A stretch of DNA of 64,000 nucleotides from contig CAYYSI010000002.1 in assembly GCA_964474435.1 (NCBI GenBank), positions 26,193 to 90,192 of the forward strand, written 5' to 3'. Position numbers and translations under genes: made by a program. This stretch comes from an uncultured Candidatus Saccharibacteria bacterium (GTDB lineage Bacteria; Patescibacteriota; Minisyncoccia; Phycocordibacterales; UBA9973). Of the stretch, positions 5,485-46,312 are shown in pieces. The stretch's first letter is position 1, and each line of letters starts with the position of its first letter. The notes below the pieces were generated by a model. The model did no database searches and was not told where the DNA came from. It worked only from the letters and a program-made list of their open reading frames with translations.

Positions 5485-6942
5485 TTACAACCTTGCAAAG
5501 AGTGATACTTCAGGTTTCTTATTCTGTTTAATCAATTCCAAGATCCTTGCAGATGTTGTCGGCATAAATGGTGCAAGTGCGGTCGCGATGAAATAGAGAT
5601 CGTTCACAAGTTTATAAATCATCTCCTTCCCTTTTGCTTCGTCTTCTTTGATCACAGAAAATGGCTTTTCGTTGGCAATATATACATCAAGCTCACCGAT
5701 ACCATTCCAGATCTCATTCATCGCTTTTTGCAAATCAAAGGCATTCATTGCGTAGTCGTATGGGAATTCCTCTTTTGCTTCTGGTGGTACAAACGGATCA
5801 ATATGCTTTTCCGCAAGGGTAAGGATGCGCGACACCAGATTACCGAGACCGTTGGCAAGGTGTGGTTGATAGGCGTCTTTGATGCTCTCAATAGTCATAT
5901 CGGAGTCCTCAAATGAGTTCATGTGTCGCAAGAGATAATAACGAAGCACATCAGTTGCAAGGTCCCCTGCAGCTGGTGCAAAGAGGTTGATGATTTCCGC
6001 AGGACTCAAAACATTACCAAGCGATTTACTCATTTTCTGCCCGCCGCTATTTATGAAACCATTGATGATGATGTGATCAGTCGTTGGTAGCCCTGCTGCA
6101 AGGAGCATGCCTTGCCACATCATTGATTGCTGACGCACATTGTCCTTGCCACAATACTGAATCTTTTCTCCTTCGTGCCAAAACTTCTGATAATTGCCAT
6201 CAGTATCCTCAGGCCATCCAAGTGTCGAGATATAGTTGGTGAGTGCATCAAACCACACATACATGACATGGTCTTCATCTCCTGGTACTGGCACACCCCA
6301 TGACATCTTTGATTTGAGTCGTGAGATAGAAAAGTCTTCAAGCCCACGTGATAGAAAGGCTTTCATTTCATTGAACCGAAAGTCTGGAATGACGAGATCA
6401 GGTTTCTCTGTATAAAGCTTCTCAAGCAGTGGTGCAACCTTTGAGAATGCAAAGAAATAATTTTCTTCATTAATGAGTTCAAGGTCTCGGTCAGGGTGTA
6501 TTGGGCAGCGGCCTTGGTCGTTGAGTTCGCTATCAGTTTTCTCAAGTTCGCACCCAACACAATACTTCGCCTCATAATTCTTTTTATAAATATAGCCATT
6601 GTCTGCAACGATCTGCCAGAGCTTTTGCGCAGCGGCTTCATGATGTGCGTCGGTTGTACGGATGAAGTGCACGTCATCTGAAATAGTGAGGAGTGGTTTA
6701 AGATTGCGAAATGATACAGCATAGCGATCAACATAGGCCTGTGTTGGCTCATTATTTTTTTGAGCAGCGTCAAAGAGCTTTTGGCCGTGTTCATCAGTAC
6801 CGGTATTAAAAAAGACTTCTCTTCCCTGCAATTTCTGATAGCGCGCAACAGCATCAGCACGAATAATTTCCATGGCAAAGCCAACGTGGGGTTCCGCATT
6901 CACATACGGAAGAGTGGTCGTAATATAAAAAGGTTTGGACAT
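5485..6942 (-). CDS. metG: methionyl-tRNA synthetase, short form lacking the C-terminal tRNA-binding domain
   Basis: TTTLPYVNAEPHVGFA... (HIGH-type motif), FFNTGTDEHGQK and KMSKSLGN; 485 aa. Confidence 0.9.
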   Translation of the reverse strand: MSKPFYITTTLPYVNAEPHVGFAMEIIRADAVARYQKLQGREVFFNTGTDEHGQKLFDAAQKNNEPTQAYVDRYAVSFRNLKPLLTISDDVHFIRTTDAHHEAAAQKLWQIVADNGYIYKKNYEAKYCVGCELEKTDSELNDQGRCPIHPDRDLELINEENYFFAFSKVAPLLEKLYTEKPDLVIPDFRFNEMKAFLSRGLEDFSISRLKSKMSWGVPVPGDEDHVMYVWFDALTNYISTLGWPEDTDGNYQKFWHEGEKIQYCGKDNVRQQSMMWQGMLLAAGLPTTDHIIINGFINSGGQKMSKSLGNVLSPAEIINLFAPAAGDLATDVLRYYLLRHMNSFEDSDMTIESIKDAYQPHLANGLGNLVSRILTLAEKHIDPFVPPEAKEEFPYDYAMNAFDLQKAMNEIWNGIGELDVYIANEKPFSVIKEDEAKGKEMIYKLVNDLYFIATALAPFMPTTSARILELIKQNKKPEVSLFARL

Positions 6943-8047: not shown

Positions 8048-9319
8048 TTACAAGGATAGAAACGGGCTTGTATCGATATCTTTGGAGGTGTAAGGACCAA
8101 TGACGGCAATGTTGGTATTGGCAGCCTTAAAGACGTTGCGGGCAACACGGCGAATGTCTTGTACGGTCACGGCGCGATAGCCGCGCTCAACCTCAAGCGG
8201 TGACCGGAGCTCCTGCCCCATCATGACTTGGGCGGCATAAAATCCTGCGATGTCATCACTGGATTCCAGTCCAATGCGCTGCATGCCAAATGTGTATTCC
8301 TTTGCCTTGGAGAGTTCATCATCTCCAACAAGTATCTGCGAAATATCTGCAAGCAACGCTGCAATCACCTTCATGATCTCATTGATACGTCGTTTATCAA
8401 TCCCTGCCGATATTTCAAACAACCCGACGTCACTCTGTGCGTCATTGCCCGCGTTGACATAGTACGCAACACCGAGCTCTTCACGAAGCGTTTGTGACAG
8501 ACGTGAACTCATCCCTCGTCCGAGGATCGTGCCAAGGAGTGAGAGTGCGTATCGATCGCGGTGTCCAAACGGCACTGAATGAAATCCAATTGTAATATGT
8601 GCCTGATCAATATTCTTTTGTACAACTGCAAGCTTGATGCCTGTTTTTTCAACAACTGTCTTTTTCTTTTTAGTTGTCTTTGCTGCATCGAGATTTTTGA
8701 AAAGATTCTCCACTGATCGGATAGTACTCTTTGCATCAACTGCCCCTGACACAACGACAAGCGTGTTGCTTGCGTGATAGTGAGTGTGTTTGTATCCTAT
8801 GACATCATCTCGGGTAAATCCGGAGACATTTTCTTTGCTCCCCGCGATCGTCCATCCTGCCGGCTGATCTCCGTACATCAGTCGCATGAGCGTCTCTCCC
8901 ACTTTTTGCTGCGGGAGGTCTTCGTACATATTGATCTCTTCGATGATGACCCCTTTTTCTTTGTGAACTTCTGTTTCAGGAAAGGTGGAATTCAAATAAA
9001 TATCTGCAAGCACCTCAAGAAATGTTGGAATATTTTTTGGGCCACCTTTTGCAAAGTAGCCTGTGTACTCAGCAGATGTAAATGCATTTGAAAATGCACC
9101 AATACGCTCGAAGCTTTCCGTTATAGCTTTTGCAGATGGAAGTTTCTCCGTGCCCTTGAAACACAAATGTTCGAGGAAGTGCGAGAGACCATTTTCTGCC
9201 TTTGATTCATACTTTGATCCTGTACCTACCAGAATCATTGCCGTTGCAGTCAGTGCCGTCGGCTGTGCAATGACGAGCACGCGCAGGCCGTTGGGGAGTG
9301 TTTTAAGTACTGGTTTCAT
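8048..9319 (-). CDS. M16 family zinc peptidase (pitrilysin/insulinase-like)
   Basis: Inverted zinc-binding motif HFLEH (HxxEH) near the N-terminus; 423 aa. The start codon overlaps the glyQS stop (TAATG). Confidence 0.8.
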   Translation of the reverse strand: MKPVLKTLPNGLRVLVIAQPTALTATAMILVGTGSKYESKAENGLSHFLEHLCFKGTEKLPSAKAITESFERIGAFSNAFTSAEYTGYFAKGGPKNIPTFLEVLADIYLNSTFPETEVHKEKGVIIEEINMYEDLPQQKVGETLMRLMYGDQPAGWTIAGSKENVSGFTRDDVIGYKHTHYHASNTLVVVSGAVDAKSTIRSVENLFKNLDAAKTTKKKKTVVEKTGIKLAVVQKNIDQAHITIGFHSVPFGHRDRYALSLLGTILGRGMSSRLSQTLREELGVAYYVNAGNDAQSDVGLFEISAGIDKRRINEIMKVIAALLADISQILVGDDELSKAKEYTFGMQRIGLESSDDIAGFYAAQVMMGQELRSPLEVERGYRAVTVQDIRRVARNVFKAANTNIAVIGPYTSKDIDTSPFLSL

Positions 9320-10653
9320 TATGCGAGCTTTGCAGCTATATATGACTCAAGTTCTGAAATAGCAATACGCTCCTGTTTTCCTGTGTCACGGTCACGAATA
9401 GTAACAGTGTCGAGGTTTTCTGGGTTTTCACCGAGAGTGTCGAAGTCGATGACGATGCACCATGGCGTACCAATCTCATCTTGGCGTCGGTATCGCTTGC
9501 CGATGTTGCCGTTGTCATCCCACATGACTGCGCCAAACTTTTTCTTGAGCATGGTGAACACTTCGCGCCCCTTTGCGACGAGTTCTGGTTTATTTTTCAA
9601 AAGTGGGGAAACACAGACTTTGACTGGTGCAACGAGTGGAGGAAGTGCGAGATATGTTCGAGCATTGTCGCCTTCGCCATCAGTTTTGTAACTCTCTGCA
9701 AGTACTGCGAGTACGAGACGATCAACACCAAATGTTGGTTCAATGCAGTGCGGCGTAAATCGCTCCTTTGTTTCCTCATCAAAGTACTGAAGATCTGCGC
9801 CACTTCCCTTGCGGTGTGCTTCGAGGTCGTAGTCGGTACGGTACGCAAGTCCAAGCAATTCTTTTTGTCCAAACGGGAAATCGTATTCAGTATCAACACT
9901 TCGCTTTGAATAATGTGCGCGATCATTCTCTGGTACTTCGATCTTATGAATCTTATTTTTATCCAAACCAATAGTGTGCAAAAATTTCATTTGTTCATCA
10001 AAAAGGGCATCAAATGTTTCATTCACTTTTGCAGCATCGCGAGGATCAACGAAGTATTCGATTTCCATTTGCTCAAATTCACGAACACGAAATATGAAGT
10101 CACGCGGTGCAATTTCATTACGAAATGCTTTACCAATCTGTGCCATACCAAAGGGAAGCTTGGGCGAAAACGTATCAAGAATATTTTTGAAATTCACAAA
10201 CATGCCTTGGGCGGTTTCTGGGCGAAGGTATGAAATATTTTCTTCACTTTCAACTGCGCCAACTGCGGTCTTGAACATCATGTTGAATTGTCGCGCTTCA
10301 CCAAATGTTCCCTGTTTCTCACAATTTGGACACACATCACTTTCGAGATGGTCAGCGCGAAATCGTGATTTGCAGTTACTACATTCAACCAATGGATCAG
10401 AAAATCCTCCCACATGCCCACTCGCCTGCCATACTTTTTGGTTCATCAAAATAGCTGCATCGATACCATACATATCTTCGCGATCGCTCACAAACTGTTT
10501 CCACCAAAGCTGCTTGATGTTGTCTTTGAGCGCGACCCCAAGTGGCCCATAGTCATATGTACCGGCGAGACCTCCATAGATCTCAGATCCTTGAAAAATA
10601 AAGCCCTTGCGCTTGCAGAGACTGACGAGGGTTTCCATTGAGACATTTTCCAT
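9319..10653 (-). CDS. glyQS: glycyl-tRNA synthetase (alpha2 type)
   Basis: KRKGFIFQGSEIYGGLAGTYDYGPLGVALKDNIKQLWW and class II motifs; start taken at MENVSMETL (ATG at 10653) rather than the extended ORF. Confidence 0.9.
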   Translation of the reverse strand: MENVSMETLVSLCKRKGFIFQGSEIYGGLAGTYDYGPLGVALKDNIKQLWWKQFVSDREDMYGIDAAILMNQKVWQASGHVGGFSDPLVECSNCKSRFRADHLESDVCPNCEKQGTFGEARQFNMMFKTAVGAVESEENISYLRPETAQGMFVNFKNILDTFSPKLPFGMAQIGKAFRNEIAPRDFIFRVREFEQMEIEYFVDPRDAAKVNETFDALFDEQMKFLHTIGLDKNKIHKIEVPENDRAHYSKRSVDTEYDFPFGQKELLGLAYRTDYDLEAHRKGSGADLQYFDEETKERFTPHCIEPTFGVDRLVLAVLAESYKTDGEGDNARTYLALPPLVAPVKVCVSPLLKNKPELVAKGREVFTMLKKKFGAVMWDDNGNIGKRYRRQDEIGTPWCIVIDFDTLGENPENLDTVTIRDRDTGKQERIAISELESYIAAKLA

Positions 10654-10660
10654 ATAGATC

Positions 10661-12556
10661 CTATGGTAGCACACGATCCTTTCCTTCGGTATAGGCAGGA
10701 TCTGAGTCAAATTTGGTCGTGATGGTGCTGCGAGTGGTCTGAATCTGGACGTTGGCGACCGTGTCAGTCGCAGTGATCGTTGTCTCCCCCATGAGGACAA
10801 GCGAGTTGCCAGCCTGAGATTTGGTTGGCTTTGCTTTGACTTGGAATGAGACGGTGCGATTTTTGGGCGTCGACGTCATCTTTGGCATTGCGCCGATCAT
10901 CCAGGTGATCGTGCGAGAGTCAGCATTGTACGTGACATTTTCTGATGAGGGCACGATGATGCCTGCCCAGTTCACACCCGGTGCCAGCGTTGCAGTAGCG
11001 GTGATGTTGGTCAGCGCATTGTCAGTAGGCAGTATCGTCCAGTTGATCGAGTACGTTGTCTCTGCATCTGCCTTGGGTGGGTATGGGCCAGTATTTTTGA
11101 TCGGGCCGATGGAGTACAGACCTTGTGCGGCAAACTGAAGGTTGGATGCAAACCTGATCGTCTTTTGATCAATCGTGTTGATCACCTGCTCGACATTACC
11201 CTGCTCAGGGAAATTGCCCTTGATTGAGAGACCAAGTGTGATGTCGCGTGATGCGCTTCCCGATCCAGGGGCGACATTGAATGCAAATGGAAGCACGCCT
11301 TTTTGTCCCGGAGCAATACTTGTGAGGCCTGGATTGGAATCCGTCGTCCAGATGATCGTGCGCTCAAGCGGATCGAAGTAGCTGTCAGCTGCAACTATTG
11401 ATGCAGTGTCGATCGTAGTTCCGCCCAGTGCGAGTGTGAATGTCGGATTCGTGATCGTCTGTCCCGAGTTATTGACCCAGTTGATCGATCCAGAAACATT
11501 TTCTCCTATACCTAGTGCAACAACATCATCAACCTTGCCACCTACTGATATCACTCCTGCAATGAATGGCTGCGCAATAGTAAGTGTCGAGAGTACTGAG
11601 TTGTATGAGACTGCGATGCGATTGCTCGTCTCGCTTTCGGGAGTACCGACATAAATACGAAATGCCTTTTCATCATTTTGCTCCCCGATCAGTTTGCCTT
11701 GGATTGCAATCGTGCGTTCATCCCCTTTTTCGAGATCACCCAAGTTCCACACATTGTTCCCAGAAATTGGTGCAGGCGTTGCAGATCCAAAGATAAAGCC
11801 GTTGGGATATTCGACACGCGTGATGACATTATTCAAAAGTTTGTCACCCGAGAATGTATTTTTAATATTGAGGGTAAATGGTTGGTTGGACACAACCGCA
11901 GTCGGCACATCGACTGTGAGGCCGACCGGACTTGAGCTCACCATCACCGAAAATGTGTTTTCTTTTTGGAATGAAGCACTGGAGCCTGCAAGCTGGTATG
12001 TCAGCACTGCCTTGATCTCGCGGCTGATGCCTTGCTCGCCATAAAGGATCGCAATGAATTCTTCGCTCTTGGTTTTGCCGCTACCAATCGTACCCATAGG
12101 TCGCTCAATACGCACGACATCAGTCCCCGTCTCATCAGTCGCGCCTTTTGGATAATTGATAACAAGTACAGCATTCTCCAAAGCTGCAGCATTTTTGTTG
12201 GTAATCTCAACTTGTATCGGCAACTCTTCTCCTCCCCCAATAAATGAATTGCCCAAAATTGCGAGGTCGACGTTTTTGCTCGAAAGTGTCACCGCACCTC
12301 TATAAAACGAAAACAGTGCAGCCCCAAGTGCGAATATAAAAAAGAGTACTGCAAAGAGAAAGAATCGTTTGTAGCCTGCCGCACTCACGTGGTGCACCGT
12401 TTCTTCTTTGGGAAGTTCTGATTGACCCCATGTCGACTGCGTGTTTTGTTTGACAGGTCGAAGGATACCGAACTTTCGTTTCGGAACGTTTTCGGGATCG
12501 CGGGTATAGAGACGCTGCTGCAACTCTGCAATGTGATCGATCTCTTCATTTGCCAT
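10661..12556 (-). CDS. large membrane-anchored surface protein
   Basis: 631 aa; about 60-aa cytoplasmic N-terminus, a single TM (FFLFAVLFFIFALGAALFSF), then a long Thr/Ser/Gly/Asn-rich extracellular region with beta-rich repeats. Confidence 0.55.
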   Translation of the reverse strand: MANEEIDHIAELQQRLYTRDPENVPKRKFGILRPVKQNTQSTWGQSELPKEETVHHVSAAGYKRFFLFAVLFFIFALGAALFSFYRGAVTLSSKNVDLAILGNSFIGGGEELPIQVEITNKNAAALENAVLVINYPKGATDETGTDVVRIERPMGTIGSGKTKSEEFIAILYGEQGISREIKAVLTYQLAGSSASFQKENTFSVMVSSSPVGLTVDVPTAVVSNQPFTLNIKNTFSGDKLLNNVITRVEYPNGFIFGSATPAPISGNNVWNLGDLEKGDERTIAIQGKLIGEQNDEKAFRIYVGTPESETSNRIAVSYNSVLSTLTIAQPFIAGVISVGGKVDDVVALGIGENVSGSINWVNNSGQTITNPTFTLALGGTTIDTASIVAADSYFDPLERTIIWTTDSNPGLTSIAPGQKGVLPFAFNVAPGSGSASRDITLGLSIKGNFPEQGNVEQVINTIDQKTIRFASNLQFAAQGLYSIGPIKNTGPYPPKADAETTYSINWTILPTDNALTNITATATLAPGVNWAGIIVPSSENVTYNADSRTITWMIGAMPKMTSTPKNRTVSFQVKAKPTKSQAGNSLVLMGETTITATDTVANVQIQTTRSTITTKFDSDPAYTEGKDRVLP

Positions 12557-13724: not shown

Positions 13725-16700
13725 TTACTGAATACTTATTTCTCCCCCACTAACCACAACCTCCTTCGCTCCTACAACTTTCTTCAAGTCGTCACCAAAC
13801 TTTTCAACGATTTCTTTTGCTGAAGCTGGAAGTGTGAGTGTGATCACATCAGCCGGTGCAAGGCCTTTGTCTTTGCGGAGGTCTTGGATCGTGCGGATGA
13901 GCTCGCGATAGTCGCCTTCGAGTTTGAGATCGAGAGTGATCTCAGTATTAAGTACGACATCAGCTTTTGGTGGAATGTCCCAGGTGACTTCCTTGACGTT
14001 GAGCTCGTCCTTGATGAGTTGAATCAATTGATCGTCAGTGAACTTAAATTTCACACCGATTGATTGGAGTGGTTGCCGCACTGGAATGTTTGCTTTCTTG
14101 CGCTCTGCATTTCCAAGTCTGCAGAACTCGCGCACCTTTTCCATATCGTGCAATATTGACCAAACAACTTTTTCCGCTTTCGGCCACACACTCAAGTGCA
14201 CACTTTCTTCGTCAGCATCTGTCTTTAGTTTCTGCCAGAGATCTTCTGCGGTAAATGGCGCAAATGGTGCAATGAGTTGTGCGGTCGTTTTGAGTACTGT
14301 GTAGAGTGTTTGCTTTGCAGCAACGTCTCCATCCTTGAGTCGGTCACGTGAACGGCGCAGGTACCACGTCGAGAGGTCGTCACAGAATTCTCGAATCGTG
14401 CGAGTGGGTGTAAAGAGGTCGTAGCTATCGAGACCTTTGGTCACTGCTTCAATAGTTTGGTTGAGTCGTGCGATGATCCATTGATCAAGTACGTTTGCAC
14501 TCTCCTTATATTCCCCTTCCAGTGTCTTGTCTCGATAGAGCTCATAAAACGAATGCACGTTGCCGAGCAAATTGAATACTTTGTTATTGATTTCGGCAAC
14601 GGACTTTTCGTCATAGTTTTTACTCTCGCCGGGTTGGTTGACTGAGTACATCCAAAACCGCACTGCATCGACACCAAACTTGCTGATCTGTTCATATGGT
14701 TCGACGATATTGCCGATGGACTTCGACATCTTCTTGCCGTCTTTGTCGAGCAAGTGTCCAAGACAAATCACATTTTGGTACGGCGTGCCGCGACCCATAA
14801 GTACTCCCACTGCGAGGAGTGTATAGAACCAACCGCGTGTCTGATCAATCGCTTCGGAAATGAAGTCTGCAGGATATGGCAAATCATCCTTGTGCTCAAA
14901 CGGATAATGATCCTGTGCAAATGGCATTGAACCAGAGTCGAACCACACGTCCATCACTTCCTTCACGCGATGGAATTCTTTGCCATCTTTTTGCAAAACA
15001 ACACCATCAATGTACGGTCGATGCAGATCGAGCTCAAATGCATCATTGTGTGGCAATGGAACGAAGTCGATGTGTCGAGTTTCTGCATTATTGAAACTTC
15101 GATACTCACGAGTCGATGCAAAGAGCGTGTTGTAGACGAAACCATGCGCAACGAACTCCATAGCTCGTGCCGCACCTCCATGAGTGACTACGAGAATATT
15201 CTTGTTTTGATATGTTGACTCAAGGTCATAGAGGAATGCTCCTGTTCGAGTGAATACATCTGCATAGGATTCTCCATCAACAGTCTTGAACTGATAGCGA
15301 TCAGCAGAGGTGTTACGCACCGCAAAGAATTCATCCATCTTTTTGCCACTATATTCACTTCCGACATTCCATTCACCAATGCGAGGGTCGGTCTCAACAT
15401 CACTGATCCCAAGTGTGTCCGCAATGATGCGAGCCGTTTCTTGTGCGCGTGTAAATGGCGAACTTATGATCATATCGATCTTGCCCTTCAAGGCTTCAGC
15501 ACTCTGGCGCACCTGCTCCTTGCCTGTGTCAGTCAAGGCATCGTTGTCGCCTGGTACGCAGCTCCATACCTCAGTGAGGTTGTGGATTGCTTCACCATGT
15601 CGTACTGCAGTATATGTGTTCCCTGATTTCTTGGAATAGTTCTTGAGTGTATCAATACTATCCACGACCAATCGCTCACCATCCTCGGCAATCCAAATCG
15701 GCAGTGGTGTCCCCCAGTATCGCTCGCGTGAGATCGCCCAGTCCTTGTCGCCCTTGAGCCATTCACCAAATCGTCCGTCGCGGATATGCTGTGGTTCCCA
15801 ATTAATTTTTTCATTCTCTGCAAGCAATGCAGGACGTACTTTCTCCATCGCAAAGTACCAACTGTCGCGCGCGTAATAAATAAGCGGCGTTTTACATCTC
15901 CAGCAATGTGGGTATGAGTGCTCGTACTTTTCTTTTTTAAATAGGAGTCCACGATGTGCAAGATCCTTGATGATATCAATTGCAACTTCTTCGTCCTTTA
16001 CAAATCGTCCCTCGAGGAATCCAGTGCCTGAGATAAACTTCCCTTCTGGATTTACTGTATGAAACTTGGGCAGCCCCACTTTTGTCCCGAGCTCAAAGTC
16101 GTCTGCTCCATACATGACTGCCGTATGCACGATGCCCGTACCATCAGTCGTTGTGACAAAATCAGCCGCATATACCTTGTACGCAGTATTCAAACTTTCT
16201 TTGTCAGTGATTTGCTCGGCAAGAAATGGGTAGAGTGGTTCGTATTGCATGCCTACCATCTCACTTCCCTTGTGTTCCGTAATGATCTCGTATGGATCAG
16301 TCAATACACTGAGCCGTTCTTTTGCGAGTACGAGTACCTGGTCTCCCACCTTTGCTTCGACATAGTCGATATCATTTCCAACTGCAAGCGCAACATTGCC
16401 CGGGAGTGTCCATGGCGTCGTCGTCCATGCGAGGAAATATCCATTATCAACACCGACGATCTTGAACTTTGCAGTTACTGATAAATCCTTATCATCTTGG
16501 TATCCTTGCGCGAGCTCGTGTGACGCAAGTGTCGTACCACATCGTGCGCACCATGGCACAACTTTGTAGTCTTTGTAGAGCAAGCCTTTCTTGTCGACTT
16601 CTGCGACGATATTCCATAGGCTCTCCATGTATGACGGATTGAATGTGTAGTACGCATGCTCCTTGTCTACCCAGTAGCCGATGCGATCGGTGAAGTCTTC

Positions 16701-17105
16701 CCAGTCCTTGATGTATGTAAATACCGAGTCCTTGCACTCTTTGTTGAATGCGGCAATGCCGTAGGTTTCAATTTCTTTTTTGGACTGAAGCCCGAGTTTC
16801 TTTTCTATCTGAAGTTCAACTGGCAGTCCGTGCGTGTCCCATCCCGCACGACGTGGCACATAAAATCCTTGCATGGTTTTGTATCGCGGGATCACGTCCT
16901 TGAATGCGCGAGCTTCGAGATGGTGAAGGGCCGGCTTTGCATTTGCCGTCGGCGGCCCTTCAAAAAACACAAACTCTTTCTGTCCTTTATTCTTTGCAAC
17001 AGTCTTGTGAAATATATCCCTCTCTTTCCAGAATGCCAAAACAGCTTCTTCGCGAAGCGCGCTGTTACTTTTTTCCGTTAATTTGTTTGTATTTGATTTT
17101 TCCAT
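13725..17105 (-). CDS. ileS: isoleucyl-tRNA synthetase (type 2, Thermus-like) with an inserted PGAM-type histidine-phosphatase domain
   Basis: PPTANAKPALHHLEARAFKDVIPRYKTMQGFYVPRRAGWDTHGLPVELQIEKKLGL, WAISRERYWGTPLPIW, LHRPYIDGV...DVWFDSGSMP and KMSKSIGN. An insertion carrying RHGE...SSPFTRAQETA...THGG lies between PLPIW and HRPY. Start taken at ATG 17105 (MEKSNTNK), immediately after the T-box terminator. Confidence 0.9.
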   Translation of the reverse strand: MEKSNTNKLTEKSNSALREEAVLAFWKERDIFHKTVAKNKGQKEFVFFEGPPTANAKPALHHLEARAFKDVIPRYKTMQGFYVPRRAGWDTHGLPVELQIEKKLGLQSKKEIETYGIAAFNKECKDSVFTYIKDWEDFTDRIGYWVDKEHAYYTFNPSYMESLWNIVAEVDKKGLLYKDYKVVPWCARCGTTLASHELAQGYQDDKDLSVTAKFKIVGVDNGYFLAWTTTPWTLPGNVALAVGNDIDYVEAKVGDQVLVLAKERLSVLTDPYEIITEHKGSEMVGMQYEPLYPFLAEQITDKESLNTAYKVYAADFVTTTDGTGIVHTAVMYGADDFELGTKVGLPKFHTVNPEGKFISGTGFLEGRFVKDEEVAIDIIKDLAHRGLLFKKEKYEHSYPHCWRCKTPLIYYARDSWYFAMEKVRPALLAENEKINWEPQHIRDGRFGEWLKGDKDWAISRERYWGTPLPIWIAEDGERLVVDSIDTLKNYSKKSGNTYTAVRHGEAIHNLTEVWSCVPGDNDALTDTGKEQVRQSAEALKGKIDMIISSPFTRAQETARIIADTLGISDVETDPRIGEWNVGSEYSGKKMDEFFAVRNTSADRYQFKTVDGESYADVFTRTGAFLYDLESTYQNKNILVVTHGGAARAMEFVAHGFVYNTLFASTREYRSFNNAETRHIDFVPLPHNDAFELDLHRPYIDGVVLQKDGKEFHRVKEVMDVWFDSGSMPFAQDHYPFEHKDDLPYPADFISEAIDQTRGWFYTLLAVGVLMGRGTPYQNVICLGHLLDKDGKKMSKSIGNIVEPYEQISKFGVDAVRFWMYSVNQPGESKNYDEKSVAEINNKVFNLLGNVHSFYELYRDKTLEGEYKESANVLDQWIIARLNQTIEAVTKGLDSYDLFTPTRTIREFCDDLSTWYLRRSRDRLKDGDVAAKQTLYTVLKTTAQLIAPFAPFTAEDLWQKLKTDADEESVHLSVWPKAEKVVWSILHDMEKVREFCRLGNAERKKANIPVRQPLQSIGVKFKFTDDQLIQLIKDELNVKEVTWDIPPKADVVLNTEITLDLKLEGDYRELIRTIQDLRKDKGLAPADVITLTLPASAKEIVEKFGDDLKKVVGAKEVVVSGGEISIQ

Positions 17106-17306
17106 ATATAAAAATAAAAAACCCGTCTTTAGAAAACAATCGAAATTGCTTTCCAAGGACGAGTTTCTCGTGGTACCACCTTGGTTACTTCTCATTGACT
17201 GCTATATCGGGCATACCCGTGGGTTCTAGATTCTTGCGAATTTCTTCCCAGAGCTTGGAATTGATAGTTCCTCAAACGCTACTTCCCCTATCCTATCACA
17301 CCTCGT
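17106..17306 (-). promoter_or_regulatory. T-box riboswitch leader of ileS
   Basis: Minus-strand RNA contains AACCAAGGUGGUACCACG, close to the T-box consensus AANNNGGGUGGUACCGCG. It is followed by a terminator hairpin and a U-run that ends directly before the ileS ATG; an AUC (Ile) triplet is available in the upstream stem region. Confidence 0.6.
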
Positions 17307-17974: not shown

Positions 17975-19363
17975 TTATTTACAGTCCAATTCTACCACGT
18001 CTCCCTCTTCTGGTGCATACGCCTCTACTCCGAGATAGTCACGCAGTCGTTGCGTGAGAAATAATGCACTCTTGGGCTCGCCCATCACCACAAATACTTT
18101 CTTCACTGTGTCAGCTATAGACTCAACGAATGCAACCAAGTGATCCGAATCCTTGTGTCCTGAATATCCATCGATGAATACGACGTTGGCACGTACTGGC
18201 ACTGTCTGCCCATTGATGTGGACTTCCTTTGCACCGTCTTGGATCGCACGACCCATCGTGCCGAGAGATTGATAGCCAGTGAGCAGGAGTGTGTTGGCAG
18301 GGTTGGGCAAATAGTTGGCTTCGTGATGAAGCACTCGCCCACCGTTACTCATCCCAGAACCTGCGATCACAATTTTAGGATTCGTTGAATGCAGAATGTC
18401 TTTGGATTCTTCGGTGAGCAATGTGGATTTGAGTCCTGGGAAGTTAAAGATGTCGTTGCCGCCCTTGATGAGGTTGCGCGCAAAGTCGTTGTAGTATGCA
18501 GAATATTTGTGATAGATGGCGGTGAGCTTGATGCCAAGCGGGCTATCAAAAAAGATTGGCATCTGCGGCACACGGTCGTGTTCGACGAGCTGATCGATTT
18601 CAAAAAGGAGTTCTTGGGAACGCTCAAGTGAAAACGTTGGGATCACGAGTGTTCCCTTCTTTTTAAAATTGTCTTCAATCGTTGCCTCCAGTCTCTCTCG
18701 TCTGACACTGCGCTCAGTGTGATTGCGATCACCATACACACTTTCCATCAGGAGATAGTCCACATTTTTGAGTTCCTCGGTATCGCGCAATAGTGGGGAT
18801 GGGGAGTTGCCGAGGTCGCCTGTAAACACAATTTTCTTGTTGTTGTAGATCAGCTCAAGCATGCCAGAGCCGAGCACGTGCCCAGCGTCACGATAGCGAA
18901 ATATAAATGGACCGATAGGCAAATCCTGATGATAGTCGATCACCTTCCAGTTTTGGAATACTTGTTCCAAGATCTTTGGACTATAGATTTCTTTGAGGAT
19001 TGGGTTCTCACCATGCCCAAGGATGTTGGCAGTGTCTTCGAGCATGAGCTCAGTGATGTCCTTGGTAGGTATCGTCGAGTAGATCTGCCCCTTGAATCCA
19101 TCGTGCACGAGCTTTGGGATGCGTCCAATGTGGTCGATGTGTGCATGTGTGATGAATAGTATGTCGATCGTGCTTGGATCATAGATAAAAGGATCCCAGT
19201 TTTTGTCATCGGCCATCTTGGTGCCTTGATTGAGCCCACAGTCGATCAAGAATCGTTTGCCTTCACCTTCGAGCAAGAAGTTTGCACCAGTCACTGATCC
19301 TGTGCCACCTGCGAATGTAAGTTTCAATGTGTACGGTTTGGTTGGAGTATCGCTCATTGTCAT
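17975..19363 (-). CDS. MBL-fold metallo-hydrolase of the beta-CASP RNA-metabolising family
   Basis: HAHIDHIG motif, later D/H motifs and beta-CASP organisation (462 aa). Confidence 0.75.
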   Translation of the reverse strand: MTMSDTPTKPYTLKLTFAGGTGSVTGANFLLEGEGKRFLIDCGLNQGTKMADDKNWDPFIYDPSTIDILFITHAHIDHIGRIPKLVHDGFKGQIYSTIPTKDITELMLEDTANILGHGENPILKEIYSPKILEQVFQNWKVIDYHQDLPIGPFIFRYRDAGHVLGSGMLELIYNNKKIVFTGDLGNSPSPLLRDTEELKNVDYLLMESVYGDRNHTERSVRRERLEATIEDNFKKKGTLVIPTFSLERSQELLFEIDQLVEHDRVPQMPIFFDSPLGIKLTAIYHKYSAYYNDFARNLIKGGNDIFNFPGLKSTLLTEESKDILHSTNPKIVIAGSGMSNGGRVLHHEANYLPNPANTLLLTGYQSLGTMGRAIQDGAKEVHINGQTVPVRANVVFIDGYSGHKDSDHLVAFVESIADTVKKVFVVMGEPKSALFLTQRLRDYLGVEAYAPEEGDVVELDCK

Positions 19364-20606: not shown

Positions 20607-22298
20607 TTACATCCTCTCTGGCACTTCAATTCCGAGTATATGAAGTCCATTCGTTAGTGTCTGTTTCGTAGCCTTCACAACTGCGAGTCTGTATGCAGTT
20701 GCAGCTGTGTCTTCATCAATGATCTTGCCTTGGCCGTACCAAGTATTGAATGCCTGTGCGACGTCGAGGAGGTAGCCGACGAGGTGGTGTGGTGCCCATT
20801 CTCGCTGTGCAAGTGTCATGACTTCTGGGAGTCGAGCAATCAGGCGTTCCAACATTTCAGTACCTAGGACTGGAGTTGTCGCATCGGGATTGATGCCTTG
20901 CTCACTTCCTTTTTTCAAAAGTGTCCCTGCACGCACTGCTGTGTATTGGAGATATGGACCTGAGTCGCCGACAAATGAAAGTGATGTCTCTGGATCAAAG
21001 TCGATGTTCTTGCCGGCCTGTGCACGCAGGATCGCAAACTTGATTGATGCAATACCGATTTGCTGTGCAGCTGTATCAGTGATATCAGCATTTTTTTCTT
21101 TGACTTCGCCGATCACCGTGTCGAGCACTTCAGACACAAGCGGTACTCCTCCGAGACGAGACGACATCTTTTGCCCTTTGAATGACATACGTCCGTGATA
21201 TCGATGCAAACTTTTGTCAGACCATTCTTTATGAATTTTCTTTGCAGCATCGAGGACCACATTGAAGTGTGAGACCTGCTGCACGTCAGTGATAAAGATT
21301 GAGAGATCGGGATTGTACTTTTTGAATTTCAAATCCAAGAGCCCAATGTCCTTGGCTTCGTATGTTGGATTGCCTTGGGAATTGATGAATACTGCAGTAT
21401 GAAGTCGATTTCCAGGCGCATAGATAATTGCTCCACCTTCTCCATACCCAAATATTTCTGATGATATATTCTCAAGCACAACCTTTTTCCCCACTACTCC
21501 CGCTTCGCTTTCATATATATATGCATCGAAGTGTGAGCCGAGCTTTGCAACGATACCTTCGAAGTAGTTGATGTTAAACGCCTTGCATGCCGCAAAGAGC
21601 TTGAGCTCATTTGACTCTCTACCCGCGTACAAATTATCAGCAATTTCCTTCACTCGATACTGCGTATTGCCACACGACTCACTCTCCGTATCATCATATC
21701 GTTTCGTTCCTTCGACATAGGCGTCCCCCAGTACTGCGACATCAGTCGGTACAAAGTCTGCGCCGTATTTCTCAAGAAGTATAAATATAGCCTTGGCAAC
21801 ACCGAGCGAAATGTCTGACGGGAATGACACCGTGTTCACCTGTGCACCACTATACTGCGCGAGTCGCGTGATCGATTCGCCTATCGTGTTATTCATGAGG
21901 TGCCCGATGTGGAATGGCTTAAACAGGTTTGGCGATGAATGCTCTACCAAAATTTTCTTGCCCGTGTACACATTGGTATGGCCATACGTCTCGACATTTG
22001 CCGCTTCGCGAATTGCATCGACGAAGTGCGTGTGGGCAAGGGTGAAGTTGATAAAGCCTGGACCTGCGATCGTTATTGATTGCACAAAACTTTCTTTGTG
22101 TTCATTCAAATATGCGACAAGTTGCTCTGCGATCTCTGTTGGATTTTTGCCAAGCTGTTTGGATGCGGCAAGTGCTGCGTTGGTTGCATAGTCCCCATGA
22201 CTCATGTCCTTCGGGTGCTCAATGACAAATGCCACATCCGACACACCAAAAAGCTCTGACAGAGCCTTGGCCACAACCTTTTGGAGATAGTCGTTCAT
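20607..22298 (-). CDS. argS: arginyl-tRNA synthetase
   Basis: SSPNLFKPFHIGHL (HIGH), KMSSR (KMSKS variant) and ArgRS N-terminal and anticodon-binding domains; 563 aa. Confidence 0.9.
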   Translation of the reverse strand: MNDYLQKVVAKALSELFGVSDVAFVIEHPKDMSHGDYATNAALAASKQLGKNPTEIAEQLVAYLNEHKESFVQSITIAGPGFINFTLAHTHFVDAIREAANVETYGHTNVYTGKKILVEHSSPNLFKPFHIGHLMNNTIGESITRLAQYSGAQVNTVSFPSDISLGVAKAIFILLEKYGADFVPTDVAVLGDAYVEGTKRYDDTESESCGNTQYRVKEIADNLYAGRESNELKLFAACKAFNINYFEGIVAKLGSHFDAYIYESEAGVVGKKVVLENISSEIFGYGEGGAIIYAPGNRLHTAVFINSQGNPTYEAKDIGLLDLKFKKYNPDLSIFITDVQQVSHFNVVLDAAKKIHKEWSDKSLHRYHGRMSFKGQKMSSRLGGVPLVSEVLDTVIGEVKEKNADITDTAAQQIGIASIKFAILRAQAGKNIDFDPETSLSFVGDSGPYLQYTAVRAGTLLKKGSEQGINPDATTPVLGTEMLERLIARLPEVMTLAQREWAPHHLVGYLLDVAQAFNTWYGQGKIIDEDTAATAYRLAVVKATKQTLTNGLHILGIEVPERM

Positions 22299-32598: not shown

Positions 32599-34464
32599 TT
32601 AGCGCACCTCAAATGCCTGATCTGCCTTGATGCTTGCAACGAGCGGCGCAAACATTTCTTCTACTTCTGTATCGGTCAGCGTTTTGTCGGTAGCTTGAAA
32701 TACAAGTCGATATGCAACACTCGTACGACCGTCTTTGGTAAATCGATCAAACTGCACCGCATCGCGCGCACAGTGCTGTTGTGCAAATGCGTGCACAAGG
32801 TCGGCAAGCTTCTTTTCATCTTGCTCATTCCCTACCCACACGGCAATATCGCGCGTGATGAATGGATATGGAGACCATGCCTTGAATGGTTGTGAAAGGG
32901 AGGCGAGTTCGAGTGAAACATTGTCTGTAACGATCGCATGCTCCTTTATATATTCTTCCAATGTCGTCTCTTTAACATTCCCCTTTTCAATAGTTGCCAC
33001 GTGGATTTCTTCACGATCTGCAAAAAACACAGTCCCGATTTCAAACAATTTCACTTCTTCGATACCCAGGAGTGCGGCGTTTAAACGATTGAGATCATAA
33101 CTTTCTTTGAGTCCATCAGAGAGATTGGTACGAAGTGCGGATTTATCTTTGGGGCCACGTGCGATATATACATCCCCCTTTTTGCGAAATGCATACGTCA
33201 TGACTTCGCGGTATCCATCATGGACAAGCCATGCTCGAGCTGCACGCATGCTCTGGTACGTCGGACTATCATCGACAGGAAGTGTAAATGGAAGTGCTGC
33301 AGACTTGATCGTGTCATACCCCATCACGCGACCTATTTCTTCGGCAATGTCGTGTGCCCCAGTAAGGTCGATACGTTTGTACGGCGCGTGCAATGTAAAA
33401 GTGTCGCCATCATTTGTGTACTCATAATGGTATCGCTTGAACACGGTGTGAATCGTCTCTGCGGTGACACTTGGTCCCAGGAGTCGCGCAATGTCTAGAA
33501 CGGTGAAGGTGATAATGGTTTGCTCAACTGGCTTTGGGTAGTATTCAAATATGCTTGTTGCTTCTCCACCTGCGATGTCTTTGATCAGTGCAATGACCTG
33601 ACTCGCAGCAGATGATGCGATCTGACACGTGAGGTCATTTTCAAATCGTTTGGATGCATCGGTGATCAGTCCGAGCGCGCGAGACGTTTTGCGGATAGAT
33701 GTTGGTTCAAAATTTCCGACTTCAATAATAATAGTTTTAGTGGGTGCGGAGGAAAGTGCCCCATCCGAGTGGTCTGGTACTGACCCGAAGGCCTCTGTTA
33801 ATCCTTCTGAATCGGCACTTTCCGGAGCACCAGATACAATCTCGGCACTCTTGCCACCTTTCACACCTGCAATCGCAAGTGGAGCGAGGTAGTCAGCGAT
33901 GACGAGCATGCTTGGATTGAGTTCTTTTTCTTCACCAGAGAGTGTCGTGATGTGTTCATGCTCATGTGCCATGCGGACGACAATCCCTCCATCGATCGCA
34001 CTTGCATCAAAGGCATGGATTGGTTGTCCACGATCAAAGAGCACGTAGTTGGTCGCATCCACAATGTTGTTGATACTTTTCTGTCCGATATTCGTCAGTG
34101 CCTTTGCAAGCCACGCCGGTGACGGTCCGACATTTACGCTCTCCATCTTGATTGCGATGTACCGACGACAAAGTTCGCTTTGCACTTCAACCTTGAGATC
34201 AAGTGGCTTTTCAGGCAGCACTGTTGGTGCAAGGGGTTTGAGTGTGAGTCCGAGGAGTCCTGCAACTTCACGTGCCATACCATAATGTCCCAGAGCATCA
34301 TGTGCACGATCGGGCAAAACCTTGATATCCATGATCGTGTCGTCATCAACCATTTCCATATCCTCTACTTCAAACGCACCAAATATAATCGTCTGCTTGA
34401 GCGATTCTGGATCAGGCAGCTTTTCCTCAATATGTTTTTGTAGCCAGTTATATGAGTATTTCAT
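32599..34464 (-). CDS. pheT: phenylalanyl-tRNA synthetase beta subunit
   Basis: MKYSYNWLQKHI... canonical PheT start, B3/B4 and B5 domains; 621 aa (shortened). Confidence 0.9.
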   Translation of the reverse strand: MKYSYNWLQKHIEEKLPDPESLKQTIIFGAFEVEDMEMVDDDTIMDIKVLPDRAHDALGHYGMAREVAGLLGLTLKPLAPTVLPEKPLDLKVEVQSELCRRYIAIKMESVNVGPSPAWLAKALTNIGQKSINNIVDATNYVLFDRGQPIHAFDASAIDGGIVVRMAHEHEHITTLSGEEKELNPSMLVIADYLAPLAIAGVKGGKSAEIVSGAPESADSEGLTEAFGSVPDHSDGALSSAPTKTIIIEVGNFEPTSIRKTSRALGLITDASKRFENDLTCQIASSAASQVIALIKDIAGGEATSIFEYYPKPVEQTIITFTVLDIARLLGPSVTAETIHTVFKRYHYEYTNDGDTFTLHAPYKRIDLTGAHDIAEEIGRVMGYDTIKSAALPFTLPVDDSPTYQSMRAARAWLVHDGYREVMTYAFRKKGDVYIARGPKDKSALRTNLSDGLKESYDLNRLNAALLGIEEVKLFEIGTVFFADREEIHVATIEKGNVKETTLEEYIKEHAIVTDNVSLELASLSQPFKAWSPYPFITRDIAVWVGNEQDEKKLADLVHAFAQQHCARDAVQFDRFTKDGRTSVAYRLVFQATDKTLTDTEVEEMFAPLVASIKADQAFEVR

Positions 34465-42779: not shown

Positions 42780-42804
42780 AGTACGAGTATATCAGGAAAA
42801 AATG

Positions 42805-42877
42805 GGGGCCTATCGGGAATCGAACCCGAATCGAAGGTTCCACAAACCTCAGTGTTAACCGTTACACCATAAGCCCC
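42805..42877 (-). tRNA. tRNA-His (GTG) with genomically encoded G-1
   Basis: Cloverleaf folded manually: G-1 opposite C73, acceptor GGGCUUA/UAGGCCC, anticodon loop UUGUGGA, T-loop TTCGATT. Confidence 0.85.
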
Positions 42878-42925
42878 ATGAGTGGTTGCTGATAACAGCG
42901 CTTTTCGTTATACCAGATTTATCCC

Positions 42926-43924: not shown

Positions 43925-43948
43925 TTTTAAATTATACCATCACTCTTC

Positions 43949-44956: not shown

Positions 44957-45006
44957 AGAGTTAGTTTAGCATGATACGCAAAAATCCCCTTTCGGGAATT
45001 TCCTTG

Positions 45007-45088
45007 TGCGCGCGAGAGGACTTGAACCTCCACGGATTGCTCCATACGAACCTCAATCGTACGCGTATACCAGTTCCGCCACGCGCGC
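45007..45088 (-). tRNA. tRNA-Leu (GAG)
   Basis: Acceptor GCGCGCG/CGCGCGC, anticodon stem UACGA/UCGUA with loop UUGAGGU (G37), long variable arm, T-loop TTCAAGT. Close to E. coli tRNA-Leu in the D-arm. Confidence 0.85.
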
Positions 45089-45089
45089 A

Positions 45090-45767
45090 TCAGTATGTTA
45101 ATTGTTGCTTTCTTTCAACTTCCAAAGCTGTTTCCACCTTTGTACGCTTGCGAGACAAACAAACAACAGTGGGACTATAGTACATTTTTGAAATTATTTC
45201 CAGTGCTTCCCTTTTGGCATACTTGAGCTGCAAAACTGATGTCTTTTGAGTACCAGTTATATGACCTTTGATTCCTATCAATCGCTGTATTGTGCTTTGG
45301 AGCCAATCGACGTGTTTCCTACTTGCAGAAATGAATTCAATATAAAACATGTGGCTCGATTTCCATCGAGGATCCCAATATGAATAAAAAGATCCGTCGC
45401 CATCGAAACATCCACGTAGATAATCAAAGAAGTATTCTTCCGGCACGAGAACGGCCCCAATAGTTTTTGATTTTGCAGGAGTAAGCCCAATACCAAGGAG
45501 AAATTCATAAAATGTTACATCCCCAAACTGCACATGGAAATATTTTTTCTCTGTTGATCTCCCATTTGATTTCACCCCAATCTTTACCGTGAGACCAAGG
45601 CATTTTTTGAAATTTTCAGCTTGTTCCAAATCTTTGGAAGTAAAGCTCATATGGCGCATGTCGTTGTACAAACAACCATCCGTAACGAGTAGCCCTATTG
45701 CATATGCAAAGTTTGCTGACCATTCTATCGGTATGTTCCGTTTTGGTTTTGGTCCCCGCCTCCCCAT
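45090..45767 (-). mobile_element. LAGLIDADG-family homing endonuclease gene (two-motif, single-chain type), free-standing
   Basis: Motifs AIGLLVTDGCL and LRGCFDGDGSF (P1 and P2 LAGLIDADG helices). ATG at 45767; the ORF can extend to a TTG at 45806. The stop codon is 1 nt from the tRNA-Leu 5' end. Confidence 0.75.
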
Positions 45768-46287: not shown

Positions 46288-46312
46288 ATAGGTCGAAACT
46301 GTATCACAAAAG

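What the first reader, a model, noticed from the sequence alone, without database searches (positions are those of the whole stretch)
15060..15617. Isoleucyl-tRNA synthetase carrying an inserted, apparently catalytically intact histidine-phosphatase (PGAM-like) domain
In Thermus-type IleRS about 35 residues separate WGTPLPIW from PHRPYVD...DVWYDSG. Here those anchors (WGTPLPIWIAEDGERLVVDSIDTLKNYSKKSGN and PLPHNDAFELDLHRPYIDG...DVWFDSGSMP) are about 235 residues apart. The extra ~190 residues (about 527-712) have the full hallmark set of branch-1 histidine phosphatases:
- TAVRHGEA (RHG catalytic His);
- LTDTGKEQ...SSPFTRAQETA (second Arg);
- RIGEWNVG (acid Glu);
- ILVVTHGG (second His).

It aligns closely with E. 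coli GpmB/SixA-type proteins.

Because the insert is in-frame within a single ORF and the flanking IleRS motifs, including KMSKS, are preserved, an assembly chimera seems unlikely. A phosphatase embedded in the aminoacylation core suggests a new activity coupled to tRNA-Ile charging, for example on a 2',3'-cyclic or 3'-phosphate tRNA end, a phosphorylated regulator, or a nucleotide. I know of no such architecture being described.

The HIGH motif is also degenerate (PALHHL where Thermus has PHVGHA).
Basis: partly seen in the sequence, partly recalled or inferred. Interest (0 to 1): 0.85.

Follow-up and report, generated by a model that had tools for sequence, protein, structure and literature searches.

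The report
Phosphatase domain inserted inside isoleucyl-tRNA synthetase
The isoleucine-charging enzyme of this tiny uncultured (Patescibacteria) bacterium really does carry an intact phosphatase domain inside it; relatives encode the same phosphatase as a separate gene overlapping the start of the synthetase gene, so the two proteins appear to work together, though on what substrate is unknown.

Summary
The ORF at 13725-17105 (-) is a full type-2 isoleucyl-tRNA synthetase (TIGR00392, 878 bits). A ~200-residue branch-1 histidine phosphatase (HP; PF00300, E=2e-30) is inserted in frame at 15036-15635.

It is not a chimera. The identical protein occurs on contigs from three sequencing runs. All of the 120 best homologues (63-100% identity) have the same architecture.

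The insert lies in CP3, a peripheral, structurally variable subdomain, not in the catalytic core. R502, H503, R553, E578 and H642 are essentially invariant in 97 embedded domains.

The "degenerate HIGH" motif (ALHH) is the published, fully active G/AXHH variant of IleRS2, so it is not a defect.

New evidence comes from 80 species-level Patescibacteria loci:
- In 42, the same HP is a separate ~194-aa gene upstream of an HP-less ileS. In 35 of these the median stop-to-start distance is -4 nt.
- In 25, it is embedded at CP3.
- Crude trees imply at least three switches between the two states.

Some IleRS carry two HP domains, and ValRS carries one to four at other loops.

HP is therefore a conserved partner of IleRS in this lineage. 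The substrate is unknown. Fold neighbours are metabolite phosphatases. I found no publication describing this.

The parts
13725..17105 (-). ileS-HP coding sequence (1126 aa plus stop): type-2 isoleucyl-tRNA synthetase with an inserted histidine phosphatase. An upstream in-frame ATG at 17195 would add 30 aa, but database copies start at 17105.
   Evidence: (P0001 is 100% identical, 1126 aa)
16917..16934 (-). Class I signature motif region P58-A-L-H-H-L63. ALHH is the non-canonical G/AXHH variant of HIGH.
   Evidence: translation; invariant in A1; PMC10485003
15906..16505 (-). CP1 editing domain (about residues 201-400)
   Evidence: matches to isolated T. thermophilus IleRS editing-domain structures 1wk8, 1wny and 1ue0 at query 201-400
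15636..15713 (-). N-terminal half of CP3 (GTPLPIWIAEDGERLVVDSIDTLKNY). Relatives have a CxxC zinc-knuckle half here; the cysteines are lost in this protein.
   Evidence: CP3 definition from PMC7191050 and PMC7955072
15036..15635 (-). Inserted branch-1 histidine phosphatase domain (residues 491-690)
   Evidence: (pLDDT about 90)
15597..15602 (-). R502-H503 of the RHG motif (phosphate-binding Arg and nucleophilic His)
   Evidence: conserved in 93 of 93 ungapped embedded domains
15447..15449 (-). R553, second phosphate-pocket arginine (SPFTRAQETA)
   Evidence: 97 of 97
15372..15374 (-). E578, general acid (RIGEWNVG)
   Evidence: 93 Glu and 4 Asp of 97
15180..15182 (-). H642, second catalytic histidine (VVTHGG)
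   Evidence: 96 of 97
14952..15035 (-). C-terminal half of CP3 (ELDLHRPYIDGVVLQKDGKEFHRVKEVM). Relatives have the CxC/CxxC zinc-knuckle half here; it leads into DVWFDSG.
14718..14732 (-). KMSKS motif (residues 792-796)
14064..14486 (-). Anticodon-binding helical domain (PF08264)
13752..13961 (-). Type-2 C-terminal domain (PF19302, DUF5915), typical of IleRS2
   Evidence: 10.64898/2026.02.03.703510 for type-2 C-terminal organisation

Best explanation
Shown:
- This is the syntenic (argS ... ileS ... recO) type-2 IleRS of a Paceibacteria-class Patescibacteria bacterium. It has an intact editing domain, a KMSKS motif and the active ALHH form of the HIGH motif.
- A complete PhoE/PspA/CobC-like histidine phosphatase (HP) is inserted inside the peripheral CP3 subdomain, between the two halves of what in most relatives is a four-cysteine zinc knuckle.
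- In sister lineages the same HP is a separate ~194-aa gene whose stop codon overlaps the ileS start codon.
- HP has been captured into IleRS, and into ValRS, at several loops and in one to four copies.

Inferred:
- HP is an accessory enzyme or subunit of IleRS in this lineage and probably docks at CP3.
- It is catalytically active. His503 would attack a phosphomonoester held by R502, R553 and H642, Glu578 would protonate the leaving group, and the phospho-histidine would then be hydrolysed.
- Position and copy number vary, and the nearest folds are metabolite phosphatases. I therefore favour a diffusible small phosphomonoester linked to the charging or editing cycle, either a nucleotide such as AMP or a phosphorylated metabolite that reports nutrient state. 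Being tethered to IleRS would supply high local concentration or regulation rather than a precise channel.
- The substrate is not identified.
For: - Identity of both modules.
- Not an artefact: the same protein is on contigs from three SRA runs, and 120 of 120 top homologues have the same architecture.
- Catalytic residues: invariant in 36 close homologues and in 93-97 of 97 embedded domains from 50%-identity cluster representatives.
- Partnership: the stand-alone HP lies directly upstream of an HP-less ileS in L004-L006. Of 80 species-representative loci, 35 are immediately upstream, 7 are upstream with a gap and 25 are embedded. That is 67 of 76 evaluable loci. The median HP-stop to ileS-start distance is -4 nt.
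- Shared argS/recO synteny with the window.
- At least three state changes on the IleRS NJ tree.
- Other sites and copy numbers.
- CP3 is variable and serves as a protein-docking surface in human IARS1 (PMC7191050, PMC13439101).
- ALHH is an active motif (PMC10485003).
- Fold neighbours are metabolite phosphatases.
Against: - No biochemical data exist and no substrate can be deduced. The domain reaches no NCBIfam equivalog cutoff.
The distance between the HP and IleRS active sites is therefore unknown.
- I could not check whole genomes for a second, HP-less ileS.
- About 12% of evaluable HP loci are not next to ileS, including a distinct unlinked paralogue.
- The trees are neighbour-joining without support values.
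- Gene adjacency could reflect co-expression only.
- The link to IleRS and ValRS specifically is not explained by a generic nucleotide or metabolite substrate.
Confidence: 0.6

Rival explanations
1. tRNA-end healing. The HP removes a 2'- or 3'-phosphate (after opening of a 2',3'-cyclic phosphate) from damaged tRNA acceptor ends, so that IleRS or ValRS can charge them.
For: - HP is tethered to two tRNA-binding class Ia enzymes.
- CP3 starts right after the CP2-3 linker, which lines the tRNA CCA pocket in yeast IleRS (PMC7955072).
- A flexible 3' end could reach domains at different loops.
- The tRNA genes in the window do not encode CCA, so 3'-end processing is obligatory.
Against: - A general repair activity has no obvious reason to be tied to IleRS and ValRS only.
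- The nearest folds are small-metabolite phosphatases, not RNA-end phosphatases.
- No histidine-phosphatase-family tRNA 3'-phosphatase is known to me.
- A stand-alone ~194-aa HP has no RNA-binding module.
- There was no PADLOC hit suggesting a conflict system.
Confidence: 0.15
2. Protein phosphatase. The HP keeps IleRS or ValRS, or a partner, free of inhibitory Ser/Thr/His phosphorylation, for example by Hip-type kinases that target class I synthetase active-site loops.
For: - Some histidine phosphatases are protein phosphatases (PGAM5, Sts-1, SixA; from my own knowledge).
- The specific link to particular synthetases and the variable copy number would fit an arms race.
- Translational coupling suggests a stoichiometric complex.
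Against: - Similarity to SixA is weak (34 bits against a cutoff of 74.5).
- Fold neighbours are metabolite phosphatases.
- No kinase was seen in the conserved neighbourhood.
- No phosphorylation of IleRS is known in these organisms.
Confidence: 0.1
3. Functionally unrelated passenger. The HP is a housekeeping metabolic phosphatase, for example phosphoserine- or phosphoglycerate-type. Its gene happened to sit upstream of ileS, and it was repeatedly absorbed into tolerant surface loops in small, streamlined genomes, with no mechanistic link to aminoacylation.
For: - CP3 is highly variable and tolerant among IleRSs (PMC7191050).
- One relative (P0208) has also absorbed RAYT-like and GNAT domains, so these synthetases accrete domains.
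- Fold neighbours are metabolic enzymes.
- Some HP paralogues are unlinked to ileS.
Against: - Adjacency persists across three deeply divergent IleRS lineages with ATGA-type overlaps.
- Insertion into the middle of an essential enzyme, recurring at several different loops and also in ValRS, needs positive selection for tethering.
- The other synthetases in the window (MetRS, ArgRS, a class II synthetase of the Gly/His/Pro/Ser/Thr family, and the PheRS beta subunit) carry no HP.
Confidence: 0.14
4. Assembly chimera, frameshifted join or pseudogene.
For: None found.
Against: - The identical 1126-aa protein is on independent contigs from SRR13208889, SRR13208899 and SRR26856460 and in NCBI.
- Hundreds of homologues have the same junctions.
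- There is no composition break.
- It is a single uninterrupted ORF.
Confidence: 0.01

Closest known systems
Bacterial type-2 IleRS (IleRS2) with the non-canonical G/AXHH signature, e.g. Deinococcus radiodurans IleRS2 (ALHH); P. megaterium IleRS2 structures 8c8u-8c9d (Brkic et al. 2023, PMC10485003)
   Same: - These are the best sequence and fold matches.
- The motif is the same ALHH, and KMSKS is present.
- The CP1 editing domain and the type-2 C-terminal domain (DUF5915) are shared.
   Different: - About 200 residues of histidine phosphatase are inserted in CP3, where PmIleRS2 has a ~10-residue zinc-knuckle turn.
- The four zinc-knuckle cysteines are lost in the window protein, although most other fused relatives keep them.
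Short branch-1 histidine phosphatases acting on metabolites: PspA phosphoserine phosphatase (4ij5), PhoE (1h2e), CobC alpha-ribazole phosphatase (6e4b), mycobacterial GpgP Rv2419c (4pz9)
   Same: - The fold is shared: Foldseek TM 0.6-0.7, E down to 1e-11.
- The full R-H-R-E-H catalytic set is present.
- The length is similar (~190-210 aa).
   Different: - Identity is only 19-26%, and every NCBIfam equivalog cutoff is missed.
- The domain is embedded in, or translationally coupled to, an aminoacyl-tRNA synthetase.
- The substrate is unknown.
NCBIfam NF040702 'isoleucine--tRNA ligase, N-acetyltransferase domain-containing'
   Same: It is a curated precedent for an IleRS that carries an extra enzyme domain. 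One relative of the window protein (P0208) has a GNAT as well as an HP.
   Different: - The extra domain is a GNAT, not a phosphatase.
- The window protein scores 352 bits against a cutoff of 1999.
- In P0208 the GNAT sits after the DxWFxSG motif rather than in CP3.
Bifunctional RNase H / acid phosphatase of actinobacteria (NF005567; Rv2228c type)
   Same: A CobC-like histidine phosphatase is fused to a nucleic-acid enzyme, and the role of the phosphatase half is likewise unclear. It scores 68-71 bits to the insert.
   Different: It is an end-to-end fusion, not an insertion, and the partner is RNase H. The score is below the cutoff of 326.
Human IARS1 CP3 as docking site for the LARS1 UNE-L domain (PMC13439101)
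   Same: The CP3 surface of an IleRS is used to attach another protein module.
   Different: The interaction is non-covalent, the partner is not an enzyme domain, and it is vertebrate-specific.

Membership tests
Isoleucyl-tRNA synthetase, type 2 (IleRS2) | Whole-protein match to the ileS equivalog model above its curated cutoff | tested here: met
   TIGR00392 scores 878.4 bits against a cutoff of 621.4
Isoleucyl-tRNA synthetase, type 2 (IleRS2) | Class I signature motifs HIGH (HXGH or G/AXHH) and KMSKS | tested here: met
   ALHH at 16917-16934 and KMSKS at 14718-14732. G/AXHH is accepted as an active variant (PMC10485003)
Isoleucyl-tRNA synthetase, type 2 (IleRS2) | CP1 editing domain | tested here: met
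   Residues 201-400 match isolated IleRS editing-domain structures 1wk8 and 1wny, E 1e-30 to 1e-33
Isoleucyl-tRNA synthetase, type 2 (IleRS2) | Type-2 C-terminal organisation (no C-terminal zinc-binding domain; DUF5915/ARD3) | tested here: met
   PF19302 at the C-terminus. The best PDB and fold hits are IleRS2, Thermus and eukaryotic IleRS rather than IleRS1
Isoleucyl-tRNA synthetase, type 2 (IleRS2) | Charges tRNA-Ile and is the cell's only IleRS | not testable with these tools
   Only the shared argS-ileS-recO synteny with HP-less ileS of relatives supports orthology. Whole genomes could not be scanned
Histidine phosphatase superfamily, branch 1 (PF00300) | Pfam match above the gathering score | tested here: met
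   106.4 bits against 21.7, E=1.9e-30
Histidine phosphatase superfamily, branch 1 (PF00300) | Catalytic core: RHG His nucleophile, two Arg, a second His and an acidic proton donor | tested here: met
   R502, H503, R553, E578 and H642 are present and conserved across 97 embedded domains
Histidine phosphatase superfamily, branch 1 (PF00300) | Alpha/beta phosphoglycerate-mutase-like fold | tested here: met
   The AF2 model of the insert has pLDDT 81.8 and pTM 0.82. Its top 50 Foldseek PDB hits are all histidine phosphatases
Histidine phosphatase superfamily, branch 1 (PF00300) | Phosphatase or mutase activity | not testable with these tools
   Needs an enzyme assay
Specific HP families: CobC, archaeal dPGM, GpmB, SixA, PspA | Score above the NCBIfam equivalog cutoff | tested here: not met
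   Insert alone: CobC 78.5 against 162.9; dPGM_arch 71.7 against 225; GpmB 41.4 against 261; SixA 33.8 against 74.5; PspA 53.1 against 350
Plasmid-type mupirocin-resistance IleRS (MupA/MupB) | Score above the NCBIfam exception cutoff | tested here: not met
   759-777 bits against a cutoff of 1900
ileS_w_GNAT (NF040702) | Score above the cutoff, and presence of a GNAT domain | tested here: not met
   352 bits against 1999, and no GNAT in the Pfam scan

The most novel reading that the evidence does not exclude
In a whole class of Patescibacteria, IleRS (and sometimes ValRS) works as an obligate two-enzyme machine with a histidine phosphatase. The phosphatase performs a previously unknown step of the charging or editing cycle. 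Candidates are removing a phosphate from the tRNA acceptor end, or destroying a nucleotide product or inhibitor, so that aminoacylation in these organisms depends on phosphatase chemistry. The phosphatase docks at CP3 when it is a separate protein, and it has been repeatedly welded in at that site.
Probability: 0.3. Interest if true: 0.85.

Novelty: new variant of a known kind. Interest (0 to 1): 0.66.

Why it matters
Aminoacyl-tRNA synthetases are among the best-studied enzymes, and their accessory domains usually point to real biology such as editing, tRNA binding or signalling.

Here an intact phosphatase is tied to IleRS in two independent ways. One is a gene pair with overlapping stop and start codons. 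The other is repeated insertion into the enzyme. Both are seen across a large, uncultured bacterial class with minimal genomes, where useless domains are unlikely to persist.

This is a textbook 'Rosetta-stone' signal for an unrecognised functional link between phosphate-ester hydrolysis and Ile/Val-tRNA synthesis. It is directly testable with recombinant protein.

It also offers:
- a natural example of recurrent domain insertion at one loop (CP3);
- a correction to annotation (NCBI calls these proteins 'class I tRNA ligase family protein', and JGI sometimes calls the free phosphatase 'isoleucyl-tRNA synthetase');
- a further set of IleRS2 enzymes with the mupirocin-hyper-resistance signature.

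Tried and rejected
- Chimera or frameshift: rejected.
- 'Degenerate HIGH means an inactive synthetase': rejected, because ALHH is the characterised active variant.
- HP presence tracks HIGH-motif type: rejected. HP-linked IleRSs have HYGH, G/AXHH and MGVHH motifs.
- Assignment to a specific phosphatase family (CobC, dPGM, GpmB, SixA, PspA): no cutoff was reached, and PDB sequence and fold hits are roughly equidistant.
- Defence-system link: no PADLOC hit. The only PHROG hit is a family of unknown function.
- Geometry of HP relative to the synthetic and editing sites: the full-length AF2 model was only moderately confident (pTM 0.60, shallow alignment), and no coordinates are exposed, so no distances could be measured.
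- Genome scan with a mixed fused-plus-free HP alignment failed because there was no conserved stretch. I redid it with the free-HP alignment.
- Search for a second HP gene in the window: none.
- Single-origin hypothesis for the insertion: not supported by the NJ trees, but these trees are too crude to count events reliably.
- Literature searches for IleRS or aaRS with histidine phosphatase or phosphoglycerate mutase, and for CPR or Parcubacteria fusions, found nothing relevant.
Full report
**What is there.**
The minus-strand ORF 13725-17195 encodes a protein whose database-identical copy (P0001, 1126 aa) starts at 17105.
- Pfam finds a class I synthetase catalytic domain split in two, an anticodon-binding domain and the IleRS2-type C-terminal DUF5915.
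- Between the two catalytic halves it finds His_Phos_1 (PF00300), E=1.9e-30, 106 bits against a gathering score of 21.7.
- NCBIfam's ileS equivalog is passed: 878 bits against a cutoff of 621.
- Against P. megaterium IleRS2 (8c8w), residues 12-487 and 691-1083 align to chain residues 7-474 and 485-893. About 200 residues therefore replace a ~10-residue turn.
- Direct translation confirms RHG (15594-15602), PALHHL (16917-16934), KMSKS (14718-14732) and the insert (15036-15635).

**Not an artefact.**
- The identical protein is encoded on contigs assembled from three different sequencing runs.
- All 120 best homologues (63-100% identity, 1056-1187 aa) carry the same domain set. They come from NCBI, JGI, ENA and Logan assemblies and are named Nomurabacteria, Paceibacterota, Minisyncoccia or Patescibacteria.
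- A full HMMER scan of 1.84 billion cluster representatives with the insert alone gave 517 hits below 1e-10.
- Most of the top 150 are IleRS proteins or fragments with the phosphatase at the same junction. Their IleRS flanks are 40-70% identical and their inserts 30-57% identical.
- There is no compositional break.

**Where the insert sits.**
The segment between '...SRxRYWG' and 'DxWFDSG' is the CP3 subdomain of IleRS: Candida residues 473-534 and yeast residues 459-526. CP3 varies in topology between IleRSs, carries a zinc motif in Thermus, and is a protein-docking surface in human IARS1.

Most fused relatives keep a CxxC...CxC/CxxC knuckle flanking the insert, for example L046 and L085. The window protein and its close kin have lost all four cysteines: IAEDGE and LQKDGKEF. 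The phosphatase is therefore inserted at the tip of a peripheral module, not in the catalytic core.

**Is the phosphatase intact?**
R502, H503, R553, E578 and H642 are invariant in 36 close homologues. Across 97 embedded domains from 50%-identity representatives they are present in 93-97.

The insert models confidently:
- It has pLDDT of about 90 inside the full-length model.
- Modelled alone, it has pLDDT 81.8 and pTM 0.82.

Its nearest solved folds are all short metabolite phosphatases: PspA, GpgP Rv2419c, Entamoeba phosphoserine phosphatase, Rv3214, TIGAR, the riboflavin-pathway HFP and CobC. TM-scores are 0.6-0.7 and identity 19-26%. It reaches no family-specific NCBIfam cutoff.

**The HIGH motif.**
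ALHH is not degenerate. Brkic et al. 2023 showed that many IleRS2 enzymes carry G/AXHH in place of HXGH. D. radiodurans IleRS2 has exactly ALHH with normal catalytic efficiency, and the motif confers mupirocin hyper-resistance. P58 and H61-H62-L63 are invariant, and A59 and L60 nearly so, in the close family. HP-linked IleRSs elsewhere carry HYGH, G/AXHH or MGVHH, so the motif type and the phosphatase are independent.

**The key new evidence: a conserved partnership.**
Stand-alone ~194-aa relatives of the insert (30-36% identity, Patescibacteria) lie directly upstream of an HP-less 951-954-aa ileS. The block is argS-HP-ileS-recO. The window has the same argS ... ileS ... recO synteny.

A scan of one genome per GTDB species gave 195 confirmed hits. 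I classified the best 80 loci as follows:
- 35 have the HP gene immediately upstream of ileS.
- 7 have it upstream with a 0.5-2 kb gap. Two of these have tandem HP genes.
- 25 have HP embedded at CP3.
- 13 have no ileS in the flank. Four of these are cut by contig ends. Six are a distinct paralogue and two are argS-HP-recO without ileS.

That is 67 of 76 evaluable loci linked to ileS.

In the 35 adjacent cases the median distance from the HP stop to the ileS start is -4 nt, and 34 of 35 are at most 30 nt. This is the classic signature of translational coupling of complex subunits.

A neighbour-joining tree of the IleRS parts shows three deep lineages. Embedded and separate states are interleaved, with at least three changes. 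The embedded HP domains are not monophyletic either. These trees have no support values.

**Wider pattern.**
- Some IleRSs carry two HP domains (P0133, P0142, P0150, P0240) and P0165 gives three HP matches in the Pfam scan. P0240 has its second HP in a loop of the anticodon-binding domain.
- ValRS proteins carry one HP (P0195, after DTWFSSG...GWP) or four (P0124, after QWF).
- One IleRS (P0208) carries RAYT-like, HP and GNAT domains.
- In the window, MetRS, ArgRS, a class II synthetase of the Gly/His/Pro/Ser/Thr family and the PheRS beta subunit have no HP, and there is no second HP gene.

**Interpretation.**
Shown: this is a real, conserved and apparently catalytically competent phosphatase, physically or translationally tied to IleRS across a bacterial class.

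Inferred:
- HP is an accessory enzyme of IleRS, and probably docks at CP3 when it is a separate protein.
- Copy number and insertion site vary, and the nearest folds are metabolite phosphatases. I therefore favour a diffusible phosphomonoester (a nucleotide or metabolite connected with charging, editing or regulation) over a geometry-dependent action on the adenylate site.

tRNA-end healing, protein dephosphorylation and an unrelated passenger function remain open. None can be excluded computationally here.

**Novelty.**
Seven full-text searches found no description of an aaRS-histidine phosphatase architecture or operon (searches checked individual papers). The sequences are in public databases under generic names. 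NCBIfam curates an IleRS-with-GNAT family, which shows that embedded enzyme domains in IleRS are recognised in principle.

I rate this as a new variant of a known kind (IleRS2 with an accessory domain), with an unexplained and experimentally tractable functional link.

Noticed in passing
P0208 (1066-aa relative; no window coordinates): An IleRS relative carries three foreign domains: a REP-associated tyrosine transposase-like domain inside the editing region (326-472), a histidine phosphatase in CP3 (680-854), and a GNAT acetyltransferase after the DxWFxSG motif (921-1065).
   Followed up: partly
P0124 and P0195 (relatives): Valyl-tRNA synthetases also carry histidine phosphatase domains. P0195 has one after DTWFSSG..STLGWP. 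P0124 has four in tandem after the QWF motif. These sites differ from the IleRS CP3 site.
   Followed up: partly
P0240, P0133, P0142, P0150 (relatives); L077, L086: Some IleRSs have two phosphatase domains; in P0240 the second is in a loop of the anticodon-binding domain. Some unfused loci have two tandem HP genes upstream of ileS.
   Followed up: partly
window 15636-15713 and 14952-15035: The window IleRS and its close relatives have lost all four cysteines of the CP3 zinc knuckle. Most other HP-containing and HP-adjacent IleRSs retain them.
   Followed up: yes
L029, L030, L057, L060, L027, L068: A distinct stand-alone HP paralogue (N-terminus MRLxLKNKYFLLRHGKTIHQAEK) is not linked to ileS. 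In L071 and L083 HP lies between argS and recO, with ileS absent from the block.
   Followed up: partly
window 17975-19363 (-): A 462-aa metallo-beta-lactamase/beta-CASP protein just upstream of ileS also hits Pfam's Anti-Pycsar Apyc1 family in the precomputed annotations. It is probably an RNase J-like nuclease.
   Followed up: no
window 42804-54620: None of the seven tRNA genes (His, Leu, Val, Arg x2, Ser, Lys) encodes the 3' CCA.
   Followed up: partly
window 17106-17195: The mechanical ORF starts at an ATG 30 codons upstream of the start used in all database copies (MEKSNTNK at 17105). The upstream extension is probably not translated.
   Followed up: partly
database annotations: NCBI names the fused proteins only 'class I tRNA ligase family protein', although they pass the ileS equivalog. 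JGI sometimes names the free ~194-aa phosphatase 'isoleucyl-tRNA synthetase', probably by annotation transfer from fused proteins.
   Followed up: no
window 5485-6942, 9319-10800, 20607-22298, 32599-34464: The window is rich in synthetase genes: MetRS, a class II synthetase of the Gly/His/Pro/Ser/Thr family, ArgRS and the PheRS beta subunit. None has a phosphatase insert.
   Followed up: yes
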